Below are positions 9,385-25,255 of a stretch of DNA of 64,000 nucleotides, piece by piece. The number at the start of each line of letters is the position of its first letter. Position 1 is the first letter of the stretch. Below the pieces are notes generated by a model. It saw only the letters and a list, made by a program, of their open reading frames with translations. It was not told the origin of the DNA and searched no databases. Both the position numbers and the translations under genes were made by a program. Source of the DNA: the human T2T-CHM13v2.0 reference genome, Homo sapiens; NCBI RefSeq assembly GCF_009914755.1, contig NC_060931.1, one strand, 5' to 3'.

Positions 9385-12300
9385 CCGATATGATAGGGGA
9401 GTGTACTCCCTCTGCGATATTGCGAATAATATTGTCGTCTCCCTTTCTGGATATTAGGAGCAATATCAGAAGGAGGATACCCTGCAATATTGGAAGTAAT
9501 ATCATCCTCTACCACCCTGGATGTGTGTACACCTTTTGCAAAACTGGGAGTAATATTGTCTCCCCCCCCAATATTAAAAACAATATCACAGGGTGGGTGT
9601 ACACTCCCTGCGATATTGGGGTTAACATCATCCTCTCTTTCCCTGATATTAACCACAATGTCAAAGTAGGGGTGTACACCCCCTGCGCTATTGGGAGTAA
9701 TGTCATCCTTTCTCCCCCTGGATATTAGGAAATGTCTCAAGTGGGGTTTATACCCCCTGCAATATTGGGAATAATATCATCCTCTTCCCCCTGGATATTA
9801 GAAACAATATCACGGGGGGCGAGGTGTACATTCTCTGCGATATTGGGCATAGTATCATCTTCTCCCATCCTTAATATTAGGAACAGTATCACGGGGGGGT
9901 GTACACCCCCTGCGATATTGGAAGTAATATCATCCTCTCCTACCCTGGACATTAGTTATAATATCACAGTGCAGGTGTACACCCCCTGTGATATTGGGAG
10001 TAATATCATCCCCTTTTTTCCTGGATATTAAGAACAATATCACAGTGGGGGCGTACAACCCCTGTGATAATGGAAGTAATATTGTCCTCTCTTCTCCTGG
10101 ATATTAGGAACAAAATCACATGGGGGTTGTACACCCTCTCCGATATTGGGAGTAACATCATCCTCTCCTACCATAATTATTAGGGACAATATCACAGGGG
10201 TGGTGTACACCTTCTGCGATATTGGGAGTAATATCATCCTTTCCCCATCTGGATATTTGGAACAATATCATGGGGGAGGGTGTATACCCCTTGTGATATT
10301 GAGAGTAATATAATCCTCTCCCCACCTAAATATTAGAAACAATATCATGGGGTGGGGTGTACACCTCCTGCAATATTGCGAGTAATATCATCCTCTTTCC
10401 CCCCTGCATATAAGGAACAATATCACGGGGTGGGGGGTACACCCCCTGCGATTTTGACAGTATTATCATCGCCTCCCCCCTTGGATATTAAAAACAATAT
10501 CACAAGGGAAATATAACCTCCCTGTGATATTGGGAGTAATATCATCCTCTCCCTTTCTGGGTATTAGAAATAATATCAGAGAGTGGGTGGTCACCCCCTC
10601 CGATATTGGGAGTAATATCCTCTCCCCTTCTGGATATTAAAAGCAATATCATAGTGAGGGTGTACACCCTCTGCGATATTGGGAATAATGTCATTCTCTC
10701 CACCTGTGGATATGACAAACAATATCACAGTGGGAGTGTACACCCTTTGGGATATTGGGAATAATAACATCCTCTCCTACCCAGGATATTAGGAATAACA
10801 TCGAAGGGGGATGTACATGCCCTGCGATATTGGGAGTAATATCATCTTTTCCCTCCCTGGATATTAGAAACAATATCACAGGGGAGGTGTACACCTTCTG
10901 CGATATTGGAAGAAATATCATCCTCTCCCAACCTGGATATTAGGAACTGTATCACAGGGGAGGTATACACCCCCTGCGATATTGGGAGTAATATTTTCCT
11001 CTCCTCCCTGGATATTAGGAACAATATCACGGGGGTGTACACCCCCTTCAATATTGAAAGTAATATCCTCTTTTCCCCTGGAGATCAGGAACAATATCAA
11101 TGGAGGGTGTACACCCCCTTCAATATTGGGGTAATATCATCCTCTCCTTCCCTTGATATTAAAAACAGTACCACAGGGATGTGTACAACCCCTGCGATTT
11201 TGAAAGTAATATCATCCTGTCCTCTTCTGGATATTAGGAAGACTATCACAGGGGTGTGTGTACACCCTCTGCGATATTGGGAGCAATATCATCCTCTCCC
11301 CCCTGGATATTATAAACAATATCACAGGGGTGGTGTACACCCCTGCAATATTGGCAGTATATCATCATTTCCCCCGCTCCCAGATATTAGGAACAATATC
11401 ACGGTGGGGGGGTGTACACGCTCTGTGATATTGGGAGTAATATCATCCTCTCTCTCTCTGGATATTAGGAACAATATCACAGGGAGGGTGTACACCCCCT
11501 CGATATTGAGTAATATTTTCTCCCCCACTGGAAATTAGGAACAATGTTACAGAGGGGGTGTACACCAACTGCGATATTGGTGGTAATATCCTCTACTTCC
11601 TGGATATTAGGAACAATCTCACTGGGGGTTGTACACCCCCTGCGATATTGGGAGTAATATCATCCTCTCCCCCTCTGGATACTAGGAACAATATCACATG
11701 GGGGGTGTACACTTCTCACACTATTGGGAGCAATATCATTTCCTCCCCCCCTACATATTAGAAACAATATCACAGGGGTGTTGTACACCTTCTGCGACAT
11801 TGGGAGTAATAGCATCATCTTTCCCAGTGGATATTAAGAACAATATCACAGGCAAGGTGTACATTCCTTGAGATATTGGGAGTAATATCCTCTCCTAACC
11901 TGAGTATTAGGAACAATATCACAGTGGGGGTGTACAACTTCTACGATATTGGGAGTAGTGTTATCCTCTCCACCCTTGTATATTAGGAAGAATATCACAC
12001 TGGGGGTGTACACCCCCTGCGATATTGAGAATAATGTTATACTCTTCACTCCTGGGTATTAGGAAGGAAGAACACCTACAAAGGGGGTGGACACCCCCTG
12101 CGATATTGGGAGTAATGTCATCCTCTCCTTCTCTGGATATTATGAACAAAATCACAGAGTGTGTGTACACTTTCTTTGATATTGGGATTAATATCATTCT
12201 CTCTTCCACTGGATATTAGAGGTAATATCACATGGGGAATGTACACCCTGTGATATTGACAGTAATATAATTGTCTCCCCACCTGCAAATTATTAACAAT

Positions 12301-23500: not shown

Positions 23501-25255
23501 TCATAGATATTAATATCACATTTTGCTAACACAGTGTGCTAACACTGGATATTATGAATATCATATAAATTATTAATATCACAATGTGCTAACACTGTGT
23601 TAACACTGGATATTATTATCACGGTGTGCTAACACTGGATATTATTAATATCATTGATATTAACACAACACAGGGTGCAAACACTGGATATTATTATTAG
23701 CAAGTCACAGGGTGCTAATACTAGATTTTATTAATATCATATTATTATTAACACATCACAGGGTGCTAACACTTGATATTATTAATATCATAGACATTAT
23801 TAACACAACACAGGGTGCTAACACTGGATATTTTTAGTATCATAGATATTATTAACATTGCAGTGTGCCAACATTGGAAATTATTAATGTCACAAATATT
23901 GGTAATAGCACAGTGTGCTAACACTGGATATTATTAATATCACAGATATTAGTAATATCACAGTGTGTTAATACAGTGTGCTAACACTGGATATCACTAA
24001 TATGATAGATAATATAGATATTAGTAATATCACAGTGTGTTAACAGTGTGCTAACGCTGGATATTATTAATGTCACAAATATTAGTAATATCACAGTGTG
24101 CTAACACTGAATACTATGAATATCATAGATGTTAGTAATACCACAGTGTGCTAACACTGAATATCATTAACATTACAGATATTAGTAATATCACAGTGTG
24201 CTACTATTAATATAATAATGTTAATACTATTGACACTATATTAGTAATATAATAGTGTTAACACTGTTATTAATATGAGAGTTAATACTACTAACACTAT
24301 ATTTTTAATATGATAGTGTTAACACTACATTACTAATATGTGTTAACACTATATTATTAATATAATAATGTTAATACTATTAACACTATATTATTAATAT
24401 AATGGTGTTAGCACTATATTATTAATATAATAGTGTTAACACTATATTATTATTATTATTTGAGACAGAGTCTTGCTCTGTCGCCCAGGCCTGGAGTGCA
24501 GTGGTGCCATCTCTGCTCACTGCAAGCTCCGCCTCCCAGGTTCACACCATTCTCCTGCCTCAGTCTCCCGAGTAACTGGGACTACAGGCGCCCCCACCAC
24601 GCCCGGCTAATTTTTTGTATTTTTTAGTAGAGACGGGGTTTCACCGTGTTAGACAGGATGGTCTCGATCTTCTGACCTCGTGATCCGCCTGCCTTGGCCT
24701 CCCAAAGGACTGGGATTACAGGCGTGAGCCACCGCGCCCGGCCTAACACTATATTATGAAACACTATATTATTATTATAGTGTAGATACTATTACATTAT
24801 TAATAGTGTTAACACTATTATCATTAATATAATAGTGTTAATACTATTAACACTTTATTATTATTAATTATAATATTAATATACGAGTGTTATTAATTAT
24901 TAATATAATTATAATACTGTTAACACTATATTATTAACAATTATTATTAATATAATAGTGTTATTAATATAATATGTGTTAACACTATAATAGTGTTAAC
25001 ACTATATTATATTGTTAATATTATAGTGTTAACACTATTATATGATTAATAGTGTTAATCATGTATTATTAATATAGCAGTGTTAATAGTAACCCTATAT
25101 TATTAATACAATAGTGTTAATGCTATTAACGCTATATTATTAATATAAGTGTTAACACTCAACACTATATTACTAATATAATAGTGTTAATAGTATATCA
25201 TTAATATAATAGTGTTAATACTATTAACACCATATTATTAATACTATTATTATTC
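20530..25255. repeat. Derived AT-rich continuation of the satellite (GTAAAC, GGAAAC, GTTAAC/GCTAAC and pure-AT sub-arrays)
   Basis: Units such as GTGTAAACACTGTGATATGATAAATATCAGAAGCGATATTTCATTAATATCACA; 54/42-bp GGAAACACTGGATATT units (18- and 14-aa repeats in ORF 22019-22366); ~28-bp GTTAACACTATATTATTAATATAATAGT. Confidence 0.85.
24451..24743 (-). mobile_element. AluY inserted in the AT-rich satellite end
   Basis: AluY diagnostics (gcaagctccgcc, ccattctcc); 14-bp TSD taacactatattat at 24437-24450 and 24744-24757. Confidence 0.95.

What the first reader, a model, noticed from the sequence alone, without database searches (positions are those of the whole stretch)
9385..25255. A ~16-kb palindromic tandem array that changes its unit stepwise along its length
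Seen: one continuous array between two CpG islands. The unit runs 74 bp (9.4-16.0 kb), ~70 bp GATGTGAGGAGT variant (16.0-17.0), ~62-61 bp (17.0-20.5), ~55-67 bp (20.5-21.9), 54 then 42 bp (21.9-22.7), ~40-60 bp (22.7-24.2) and ~28 bp near-pure AT (24.2-25.25). The dyad centre changes TGTACA > GTAAAC > GGAAAC > GTTAAC/GCTAAC, and GC content falls left to right, yet the GATATT...AATATC skeleton and self-complementarity persist. Inference: a polar growth record in which each block was amplified from its neighbour, possibly linking a simple AT palindrome to the SATR1/2 satellite. Retained dyad symmetry suggests a hairpin-driven amplification mechanism or a constrained protein-binding platform. I recognise the left part as SATR-like but know no description of this gradient architecture.
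Basis: partly seen in the sequence, partly recalled or inferred. Interest (0 to 1): 0.85.

Follow-up and report, generated by a model that had tools for sequence, protein, structure and literature searches.

The report
Stepwise-graded ancient SATR-type satellite array
This is a 16-kb stretch of old, decaying satellite DNA whose repeat unit shrinks in steps from 76 to 28 bases; the same unit types in the same neighbour order occur at many other places in the human genome, so the gradient is a family trait and nothing points to a function.

Summary
Window 9385-25245 is one tandem array of about 260 units, broken only by an Alu. The unit steps 76 > 71 > 63/61 > 56/69 > 54 > 42 > 56-59/71 > 50 > 28 bp, and GC falls 0.43 > 0.33 > 0.31 > 0.17.

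Block consensuses form a chain of significant homology, and hybrid or graded units sit at six of eight boundaries. Only 1 of 500,000 random block orders links similar blocks as well as the real order.

- The same unit classes, with nearly the same consensus, recur at 20 other loci examined. Of 24 class junctions there, 23 join classes that are neighbours in the chr7 order.
- There is no left-to-right age trend: units match their own block consensus at 80-91% throughout.
- The palindrome arms decay independently. Pairing within a unit equals pairing between units in all 12 blocks, with 12 compensatory double changes against 18.6 expected.

The gradient is therefore an inherited feature of a dispersed SATR-type satellite family, now a neutral fossil. 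It is not a private polar growth record or a constrained hairpin or protein platform. Direct homology between the 76-bp unit and the AT-rich end is undetectable; the link is transitive only. Primate orthologues and population variation could not be checked.

The parts
9044..9380 (+). Alu with poly-A tail that forms the left edge; the array starts in mid-unit at the next base
   Evidence: Sequence read. Masked stretch 9044-9342. No array 9-mers lie left of it. That it is an Alu is my recognition, not a tool result.
9385..16026 (+). Block A: about 90 units of 76 bp, GC 0.43, dyad centre TGTACA, C-rich spacer
   Evidence: TRF period 76, 80.3 copies, 73% matches. Units cut. The unit is a diverged dimer of about 38 bp: half against half gives z 9.6, with 0 of 60 shuffles as good.
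16027..17460 (+). Block B: 71-bp units. It opens with a 102-bp hybrid unit at 16027 and grades into C-type from about 17193
   Evidence: Within-block rho -0.35, with 0 of 2000 permutations as extreme.
17461..20525 (+). Block C: 63-bp then 61-bp units, with 74/76-bp long variants
   Evidence: The long form equals the short form plus a 13-bp tandem duplication of the left half of the core.
19756..20300 (+). Young re-amplified tract of 61-bp units (183-bp higher-order period) inside block C
   Evidence: Lag match 0.82-0.83 at lags 61, 122 and 183. A run of eleven 61-bp units.
20526..21870 (+). Block D: 56/69-bp units with centre GTAAAC. The junction with C is abrupt at 20488-20569
   Evidence: The D consensus aligns to C about equally well on either strand (forward z 15.7 and 11.0; reverse z 17.9 and 12.8).
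21871..22205 (+). Block E1: 54-bp units with centre GGAAAC. The first unit is a D/E hybrid
   Evidence: No excess folding: z 0.0.
22206..22705 (+). Block E2: 42-bp units, equal to E1 minus 12 bp. The least diverged block
   Evidence: TRF period 42, 12 copies, 84% matches. Match to consensus 0.91. Boundary units shown.
22706..23660 (+). Block F: 56-59/71-bp units with centre GTTAAC. It opens with an E/F hybrid unit and grades to GCTAAC
   Evidence: Closer to C and A than D and E are.
23661..24205 (+). Block G: 50-bp units with centre GCTAAC
24206..24450 (+). Block H1: 28-bp AT-rich units (GC 0.17) with centre GTTAAC, made of one short palindromic module plus the core
   Evidence: G-H1 z 6.2 and F-H1 z 6.7, each with 0 of 500 shuffles as good.
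24451..24743 (-). Alu inserted into the AT-rich block
   Evidence: Sequence. H-type units lie on both sides. The same 14-mer lies at 24437-24450 and 24744-24757, but it is part of the repeat unit (6 copies in the window), so it does not prove a target-site duplication. GC 0.58 with 15 CpG.
24744..25245 (+). Block H2: 26-28-bp AT-rich units, GC 0.17
   Evidence: Tied to H1 (z 4.6-7.3, mononucleotide shuffles) but not directly to G (z 1.5; 48 of 500 shuffles as good).

Best explanation
The stretch is one locus of an old, dispersed primate satellite family, most likely the one annotated as SATR1/SATR2. It survives as a neutral, decaying fossil.

Every unit follows one plan. Two short palindromic modules (GATATT, a loop, AATATC) are separated on one side by a palindromic core and on the other by a spacer. 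From left to right the spacer, the core arms and the loops get shorter and lose G and C. The 28-bp AT-rich unit is one module plus the core.

Each block is a local amplification of one such variant, by unequal exchange or replication slippage. New variants arose next to their parents, which accounts for the hybrid and graded units at the boundaries.

This differentiation into classes happened in the family's ancestral array or arrays, before or while the family spread to many chromosomes. The same classes, with the same consensus and the same neighbour order, are therefore found elsewhere. Chromosome 7 keeps a single complete pass through the series.

Since then the units have drifted by about 9-20% from their class consensus, with only small later re-amplifications. 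The dyad symmetry is inherited from the founder units and is not maintained.

Shown: the anatomy, the homology chain, the recurrence elsewhere, and the lack of compensatory change. Inferred: the order of events, the mode of dispersal, and the absence of function.
For: - Anatomy and shrinking parts: phase-aligned consensuses.
- Homology chain.
- Seriation: 1 of 500,000 random orders does as well. Monomer Mantel rho -0.61.
- Hybrid or graded boundary units.
- Other loci carry the same classes. Normalised consensus similarity reaches 1.00 for A (chr3:164.29M, chr2:167.15M), 1.01-1.03 for C (chr8:29.60M, chr3:170.98M), 0.96 for D (chr8:94.79M) and 0.96 for E1 (chr16:83.77M).
- Junctions between class runs in the 20 other loci examined: A-C 11, C-D/E 7, D/E-F/G/H 5, C-F 1, A-D 0, A-F 0.
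- GC falls with class at those loci too: A 0.45-0.53, C 0.32-0.44, D/E 0.26-0.33, AT-rich 0.18-0.22.
- Decay is similar in all blocks, 0.80-0.91 match to consensus. TRF matches at the other loci are mostly about 67-85%, with a few small arrays at about 90%.
- No dyad maintenance.
- No RNA family hit and no annotated functional element.
- Link to the published SATR literature: 3 of the 17 other loci listed have OR7E genes or pseudogenes within 25 kb (chr2:96.05M, chr19:9.38M, chr12:52.07M). Passages in PMC5088589 and PMC2700803 place SATR1/SATR2 beside OR7E in the Xiao duplicon. A macaque T2T preprint gives SATR1 a mean GC of 44% and describes mixed SATR arrays with AT-rich inserts.
Against: - The other loci were found because they resemble this array, and their tiles were labelled by best match to the chr7 blocks. 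Because the classes form a similarity chain, mislabelling would itself favour neighbour junctions.
- Only some candidates were scored: 6 of 4932, 40 of 160 and 40 of 82. The census is incomplete.
- Strand relations are not those of simple copying. At chr16:83.77M, chr8:94.79M, chr1:223.73M, chr5:136.28M, chr5:136.32M and chr16:10.73M the C runs and D/E runs carry opposite strand labels, whereas on chr7 they share one. At chr8:29.60M the order is reversed on the same strand.
- chr7 shares no unique flank with any other locus, so the mode of dispersal is unknown.
- The C/D and G/H junctions are abrupt.
- H2 has no direct link to G, and A has none to H.
- No outgroup or orthologue was available, so the direction (76 to 28 or 28 to 76) and the date are inferred, not shown.
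Confidence: 0.68

Rival explanations
1. One reading: a polar growth record private to this locus. Each block was amplified from its neighbour at 7q22.1, growing from one end, possibly from a simple AT palindrome towards the 76-bp unit or the reverse.
For: The positional order matches the similarity order. Hybrid or graded units lie at six of eight boundaries. Among the loci examined, this is the only one with a single ordered pass through all classes.
Against: The classes and their neighbour order recur at other loci with nearly the same consensus. There is no age gradient. Block A has no internal positional structure (rho -0.02). D/E form a side branch lying between C and F. chr16:10.73M also holds all four merged classes.
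Confidence: 0.12
2. The dyad symmetry is kept by a process or by selection: either hairpin- or cruciform-driven amplification and correction, or a platform for a dimeric DNA-binding protein or a KRAB zinc-finger protein.
For: Nine of 12 stretches fold far better than shuffles. A 12-13-bp tandem duplication of the left half of the core is seen in three classes (C, D, F), each carrying its own class-specific centre. Unit pairs differing by 13 bp recur at other loci (54/67, 59/72, 63/76). This would fit slippage at a hairpin-prone core. A preprint passage reports ZNF141 ChIP enrichment over SATR1.
Against: Cis arm pairing equals trans arm pairing in 12 of 12 blocks. There are 12 compensatory doubles against 18.6 expected, and 619 one-sided changes. 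Folding excess is lost in E1 and weak in B and E2. The exact hexamer skeleton is absent from H. Units are 9-20% from consensus, as expected for neutral decay.
Confidence: 0.1
3. The right-hand AT-rich part (H, 24.2-25.25 kb) is an unrelated AT-rich minisatellite that merely lies next to the SATR-type array.
For: A-H1 shows no homology, and G-H2 is not significant (48 of 500 shuffles as good). H holds no GATATT or AATATC. The G/H junction is abrupt. The two H-like loci fetched from the genome search hits (chr1:238.05M and chr6:165.99M) are stand-alone AT-rich minisatellites with no SATR-type flanks.
Against: G-H1 gives z 6.2 and F-H1 z 6.7, each with 0 of 500 dinucleotide shuffles as good. The aligned stretch covers the core centre and the adjoining module. 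AT-rich classes (GC 0.18-0.22) also adjoin C or D/E classes at chr16:10.73M and chr5:136.28M, and an AT-rich centre lies between inverted A arrays at chr2:167.15M.
Confidence: 0.2
4. The series is the internal repeat region of a mobile or repeatedly copied composite seed. A short seed holding one or a few units of each class landed at many sites, and each class then expanded in place.
For: The neighbour order is the same but block lengths differ widely between loci. No unique flanks are shared. Relative strands vary, which could arise if quasi-palindromic founder units flip.
Against: No terminal repeats, target-site duplications or coding remnants were found. The only shared flank is a high-copy LINE-like repeat (21,492 first-look candidates; no Pfam hit in 3 mechanical ORFs). 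Some related loci clearly moved as segmental duplications with OR7E.
Confidence: 0.1

Closest known systems
SATR1 / SATR2 primate satellites
   Same: A tandem unit of about 76 bp with GC about 0.43. Interstitial and pericentromeric arrays lie on many chromosomes. Some related loci sit beside OR7E genes, as described for the Xiao duplicon. The macaque preprint gives SATR1 a GC of 44%.
   Different: About a third of the array (20.5-25.25 kb: 56/54/42/50/28-bp units) is not obviously covered by what the papers I could read describe. No repeat library was available to say how the blocks are named.
Mixed SATR arrays in the rhesus macaque T2T assembly (preprint 10.1101/2025.08.04.668424; passages read)
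   Same: Arrays are built of several SATR subfamilies side by side, with differing GC and AT-rich uncharacterised repeats between inverted and forward SATR1. The chr2:167.15M locus here has that inverted / AT-rich / forward layout.
   Different: The macaque arrays are multi-core, subtelomeric or flanked by inverted duplicated spacers. The chr7 array is a single one-way pass with no shared flanks. The passages I read mention no ordered unit-length series.
Layered expansion of centromeric alpha satellite (recalled from the general literature; no paper read here)
   Same: Related variant arrays lie side by side, with similarity falling with distance.
   Different: Alpha-satellite layers are symmetric around a young core and show an age gradient. 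Here the pass is one-sided and no age gradient is seen.
Palindromic AT-rich repeats (PATRR) at translocation breakpoints (recalled)
   Same: The H block is AT-rich and strongly self-complementary (z -3.7 and -6.7).
   Different: H is a tandem of short 28-bp palindromic units, broken by an Alu. It is not one long near-perfect palindrome.
Minisatellites with internal variant maps and polar mutation (recalled)
   Same: Variant units are ordered along an array, with hybrids at the boundaries.
   Different: Polarity there is a population-level mutation bias, which could not be tested here. The units here are far more diverged, with 70-85% matches between neighbouring units.

Membership tests
SATR1/SATR2 satellite family | Significant match to the curated SATR1 or SATR2 consensus (RepeatMasker/Dfam) | not testable with these tools
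   No repeat library is offered, and the RefSeq masking table carries no family names.
SATR1/SATR2 satellite family | Dispersed interstitial and pericentromeric arrays of the same unit on many chromosomes | tested here: met
   A- and C-class arrays lie on chr2, 3, 4 (49.2-49.3 Mb), 5, 8, 12, 13, 16 and 19, with consensus similarity up to 1.0.
SATR1/SATR2 satellite family | Association with OR7E-bearing Xiao/DA duplicons (PMC5088589 and PMC2700803; passages read) | tested here: met
   OR7E genes or pseudogenes lie within 25 kb of 3 of the 17 related loci listed (chr2:96.05M, chr19:9.38M, chr12:52.07M). Those three loci also share flanks of 0.8-1.7 kb at 75-88% identity. There is none at the chr7 locus itself.
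Mixed SATR arrays as described in macaque | Two or more SATR subfamilies contiguous in one array | tested here: met
   A/B/C are contiguous on chr7. There are 11 A-C junctions in the other loci.
Mixed SATR arrays as described in macaque | Flanking inverted duplicated spacers or composite repeats | tested here: not met
   The chr7 flanks match no other locus apart from common repeats.
Layered (age-graded) satellite array | Monotone age gradient of layers | tested here: not met
   Match to own consensus by block: A 0.86 and 0.85, B 0.81, C 0.82 and 0.86, D 0.81, E 0.88 and 0.91, F 0.82, G 0.86, H 0.84 and 0.80.
Layered (age-graded) satellite array | Mirror symmetry of layers around a core | tested here: not met
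   chr7 shows a single one-way pass. Partial mirror orders occur elsewhere: A-C-A at chr3:164.29M and chr2:180.50M.
Structure-constrained palindrome (hairpin or protein site) | Compensatory changes, or higher cis than trans arm complementarity | tested here: not met
   Cis equals trans in 12 of 12 blocks. There are 12 compensatory doubles against 18.6 expected.
PATRR-type palindrome | One long near-perfect AT-rich palindrome of several hundred bases | tested here: not met
   H is a tandem of 26-28-bp units at 67-70% matches, split by an Alu.
Polar minisatellite | Mutation or length change biased to one end in populations | not testable with these tools
KZFP target (ZNF141 on SATR1) | Presence of the published binding motif in the units | not tested
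   Only a passage stating the enrichment was read. The motif is in a supplementary figure that I could not see.

The most novel reading that the evidence does not exclude
All SATR-type arrays in the genome may be copies or fragments of one ancestral cline. In that cline a GC-richer 76-bp unit, itself a dimer of about 38 bp, grades through 63-, 54- and 50-bp units into a 28-bp AT-rich palindrome. 7q22.1 would keep the only complete one-way transect and could be close to the source locus. The recurrent 13-bp duplication of the palindromic core in three classes would mark hairpin-associated slippage as the driver of unit-length change.
Probability: 0.25. Interest if true: 0.55.

Novelty: new variant of a known kind. 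Interest (0 to 1): 0.38.

Why it matters
If the ordered series is a family-wide feature, it gives a rare readable record of how a satellite unit changes length and composition. The route would be loss of spacer and arm bases, and duplication at a palindromic core.

It would also tie several repeat classes, probably annotated separately or not at all, into one lineage. That could improve repeat annotation of complete genomes. It could also help interpret SATR-bounded duplication breakpoints such as those at 8p23.1.

For the genes at this locus (ZNF655, TMEM225B) nothing suggests a role. The practical point is only that a 16-kb block of hairpin-prone, AT-ending repeat lies about 150 bp upstream of the TMEM225B start.

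Tried and rejected
- Fuzzy 9-mer anchor for cutting units. Too noisy in the short-unit blocks. Replaced by wrap-around alignment to each block's consensus.
- Ungapped 14-bp arm scan for dyads. It showed an excess (34 against 3) but missed most units, because the G and C runs differ in length. 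Replaced by folding and by pairs taken from the folded consensus.
- AT-rich pieces next to two other loci. I first read matches to array positions 15139-15359 at chr3:170.98M and chr2:96.05M as AT-rich pieces beside those arrays. They are matches to the Alu inside the array. Corrected in note 3.
- Shared flanks as a sign of segmental duplication. The common flank is a high-copy LINE-like repeat (21,492 first-look candidates). Three mechanical ORFs in it had no Pfam match. Dropped.
- H-like matches across the genome. The two I could fetch are stand-alone AT-rich minisatellites, so those matches are compositional. They were not used as evidence.
- Direction of change (76 to 28 or the reverse). 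CpG positions in the consensuses gave no consistent polarity. Left open.
- Rfam scan of 9000-25600: no family.
- Literature. Searches were SATR1/SATR2 (31 papers, 25 listed), TMEM225B plus 'tandem repeat' (1 paper, irrelevant), and SATR / 'interstitial satellite' / T2T (40 papers, 15 listed). I read passages only, not whole papers, in 10.1101/2025.08.04.668424, 10.1101/2025.11.03.686349, 10.1101/2021.07.12.451456, 10.1101/2023.02.27.530095, 10.1101/2023.08.31.555516, PMC5088589, PMC2700803 and PMC3606032. None of those passages describes an ordered unit-length series or this locus. Supplementary tables and figures of the macaque and T2T repeat papers were closed and may hold such detail.

Full report
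WHAT IS THERE

Window 9385-25245 is a single tandem array. Tandem Repeats Finder reports, among others:
- a 76-bp unit at 9545-15554 (80.3 copies, 73% matches);
- 71 bp at 16047-17606;
- 61 bp at 17629-20509;
- 69 and 56 bp at 20539-21559;
- 54 bp at 21867-22241;
- 42 bp at 22203-22699 (12 copies, 84% matches);
- 71, 56-59 and 50 bp between 22776 and 24203;
- 26-28 bp at 24222-24456 and 24768-25224.

A lag-autocorrelation profile gives the same steps. The array begins in mid-unit directly after the poly-A tail of an Alu, at about 9380. An Alu at about 24451-24743 interrupts it. GC by block is A 0.43, B 0.39, C 0.33, D to G 0.30-0.31, and H 0.17. The corrections are listed under the observation check.

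ANATOMY

I cut the array into 263 pieces by wrap-around alignment to each block's own consensus. I put the twelve consensuses into a common phase. All follow one plan:
- a spacer;
- a short palindromic module (GATATT, a loop of 3-6 bases, AATATC);
- a palindromic core that starts ACAG and ends CTGT or CTGC around a changing centre;
- a second module.

From A to G the spacer shrinks from 16 to 3 bases, the core from 24 to 17, and the loops from 6 to 3. The 28-bp H unit is one degenerate module plus the core.

The 76-bp unit is itself a diverged dimer of about 38 bp. Half against half gives z 9.6, with 0 of 60 shuffles as good.

In classes C, D and F a long and a short form coexist. They differ by a 12-13-bp tandem duplication of the left half of the core, and each duplicate carries that class's own centre. 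This explains the 61/74, 56/69 and 58/71 pairs.

ARE THE BLOCKS RELATED, AND DOES RELATEDNESS FOLLOW POSITION?

Cyclic local alignment of consensuses against dinucleotide-preserving shuffles gave the following:

| Pair | z | Shuffles as good (of 500) |
|---|---|---|
| A-F | 21.5 | 0 |
| C-F | 32.8 | 0 |
| F-G | 24.7 | 0 |
| E1-G | 19.8 | 0 |
| G-H1 | 6.2 | 0 |
| F-H1 | 6.7 | 0 |
| A-D | 4.1 | 2 |
| A-G | 3.6 | 3 |
| G-H2 | 1.5 | 48 |
| A-H1 | 0.2 | 204 |

The two ends are thus linked only through intermediates.

The real block order has a summed adjacent similarity that 1 of 500,000 random orders reaches. Mantel rho is -0.70, with 1 of 20,000 permutations as extreme. The best possible path is A, B, C, F, G, H followed by D, E. 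So D/E is a side branch that lies between C and F.

Among the 239 units of at least 80% of unit length, rho between distance and similarity is -0.61, with 0 of 500 permutations as extreme. The best match lies in the same block for 218 units. The other 21 best matches lie in adjacent blocks, except two F units that match C.

Inside block A there is no positional structure (rho -0.02; 612 of 2000). Inside B and E there is (rho -0.35 and -0.62).

Boundary units are hybrid or graded at A/B (a 102-bp unit at 16027), B/C (17193-17541), D/E1 (21874), E1/E2 (a 12-bp loss at 22197-22245), E2/F (22706) and F/G. The C/D (20488-20569) and G/H (24175-24206) junctions are abrupt.

IS IT PRIVATE TO THIS LOCUS?

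No. Searching the same genome with the whole array, with blocks D-G, and with H2 found many related places. Only some of the first-look candidates were scored. I fetched 20 of those places.

TRF consensuses from them match the chr7 classes closely. Normalised scores reach 1.00 for A, 1.01-1.03 for C, 0.96 for D and 0.96 for E1. F reaches only 0.70, and the AT-rich classes about 0.5-0.7.

The 63-bp and 76-78-bp forms alternate in C-class arrays almost everywhere. Unit pairs 54/67 and 59/72 recur in D/E-class arrays.

Labelling 200-bp tiles by their best match to the chr7 blocks, and keeping runs of at least three tiles, gave 24 junctions between classes: A-C 11, C-D/E 7, D/E-F/G/H 5, C-F/G/H 1, A-D/E 0 and A-F/G/H 0. 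GC falls with class at those loci too.

One other locus, chr16:10.73M, holds all four merged classes, in the order F-D-F-C-A-C-A. chr7 is the only one examined with a single ordered pass.

Caveats:
- The loci were found by similarity to chr7.
- The labels are relative to chr7, and the classes form a similarity chain. Both facts favour neighbour junctions.
- The chr4 pair is a 100% identical inverted duplicate, so it is not independent.

WHAT DOES NOT FIT SIMPLE COPYING

At six loci the C runs and D/E runs carry opposite strand labels, whereas on chr7 they share one. At chr8:29.60M the order is reversed on the same strand. The D consensus aligns to C about equally well in both orientations, so its strand relative to C is ambiguous in itself. 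I have no tested explanation.

Apart from common repeats, chr7 shares no flank with any other locus. Three C-class loci share 0.8-1.7 kb of flank at 75-88% identity and lie next to OR7E genes. That fits the published Xiao duplicon, in which OR7E is flanked by SATR2 and SATR1 (passages in PMC5088589 and PMC2700803).

AGE AND MAINTENANCE

Units match their own block consensus at 0.80-0.91, with no left-right trend. E2 (0.91) and E1 (0.88) are the least diverged. A tract of 61-bp units at about 19756-20300 is clearly young, with lag match 0.82-0.83.

The family is present in macaque and gibbon according to passages I read. So it is at least as old as the catarrhines. I did not date it further.

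To test for maintenance of the dyad, I took the base pairs of each folded consensus. I then compared complementarity within units (cis) with complementarity between the left arm of one unit and the right arm of another (trans). Cis and trans were equal in all 12 blocks. For example, block A1 gave 16.15 against 16.09, with 678 of 2000 permutations as high. Across all blocks there were 619 one-sided changes, 26 double changes that break the pair, and 12 compensatory doubles against 18.6 expected under independence.

The symmetry is real. Nine of 12 stretches fold better than all or all but one of 200 shuffles, and two flank controls do not. But it is inherited and decaying, not maintained. The recurrent core duplication is the one feature that could reflect hairpin-prone slippage.

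KNOWN CONTEXT

- A macaque T2T preprint describes SATR1, a SATR1 variant and SATR2 in mixed arrays. These include an inverted SATR1 / AT-rich repeat / forward SATR1 layout, and SATR1 has a mean GC of 44%.
- The T2T repeat preprint lists a SATR1 variant among newly curated interstitial satellites.
- A KZFP preprint reports ZNF141 enrichment on SATR1.
- A ZBTB24 preprint lists SATR1 and SATR2 among satellites with ChIP reads.
- None of the passages read describes an ordered series of unit lengths or this locus.
- Three searches found nothing else.
- Rfam has no match. RefSeq lists no functional element in the array and leaves most of it unmasked.

VERDICT

This is an ordinary kind of object: an old interstitial satellite. 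Its internal organisation is unusually legible. The stepwise series is real and its blocks are related in chain fashion.

The evidence favours a family-level, inherited architecture that is now decaying neutrally. It does not favour a locus-private polar growth record or a constrained palindrome. The direction of change, the date and the mode of dispersal remain open, because no orthologues, population data or repeat library could be used.

Noticed in passing
window 25228-25340: The right edge of the array runs straight into sequence that I recognise from memory as the core of a MIR-type SINE. The last dozen AT-rich bases of the array could belong to either. No MIR-like left half is evident beyond the left edge. 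Not tested, as no repeat library was available.
   Followed up: no
window 24437-24757: An Alu on the minus strand sits inside the AT-rich block, with the same 14-mer on both sides. That 14-mer is part of the repeat unit (6 copies in the window), so it is only weak evidence of a target-site duplication. The Alu keeps 15 CpG.
   Followed up: partly
window 19756-20300: A run of nearly identical 61-bp units with a 183-bp higher-order period (lag match 0.82-0.83). It is much younger than the rest of the array.
   Followed up: partly
window 17461-23660; also L003/L004, L011-L020: Long and short unit forms differ by 12-13 bp, a tandem duplication of the left half of the palindromic core. This occurs in three classes, each duplicate carrying its class-specific centre. 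Unit pairs differing by 13 bp also recur at other loci. Whether this is recurrent slippage or an old dimorphism is unresolved.
   Followed up: partly
L005/L006 (chr2:167,150,466-167,155,674): Two 76-bp arrays lie in opposite orientation around a short AT-rich centre (GC 0.23). This resembles the inverted SATR1 / AT-rich / forward SATR1 core described in macaque.
   Followed up: partly
L009 and L010 (chr4:49.20 Mb and 49.32 Mb): Two arrays about 110 kb apart near the chromosome 4 centromere have flanks that are 100% identical in inverted orientation over 2.5 kb and 0.9 kb. This points to a very recent inverted duplication.
   Followed up: no
chr16:10.73 Mb (L021-L023) and chr4:49.20 Mb (L009): Mitochondrial pseudogenes lie within 25 kb of both arrays: MT-CYB, ND6, ND5, ND4, ND4L, ND3, CO3 and ATP6 at chr16, and CO3 and ND3 at chr4. 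This may be coincidence or a shared tendency to capture DNA.
   Followed up: no
window 20526-24205: The core palindrome of blocks D-G is built of the heptamer CACAGTG and its complement CACTGTG facing each other. These are the same letters as the V(D)J recombination signal heptamer (a recalled resemblance). No nonamer or spacer was looked for, and this is probably chance.
   Followed up: no
window 9385-25245: The soft-masking that comes with the RefSeq sequence leaves the array almost wholly unmasked. Only seven short masked stretches of 100-134 bp lie inside it, plus the inserted Alu, in about 16 kb.
   Followed up: no
L005:1199-3364 and flanks of L001, L007, L009, L015, L019, L020: A high-copy LINE-like repeat lies close to the arrays at several loci (21,492 first-look candidates; 5'-truncated copies sharing a 3' end). 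It is absent from the chr7 flanks.
   Followed up: partly
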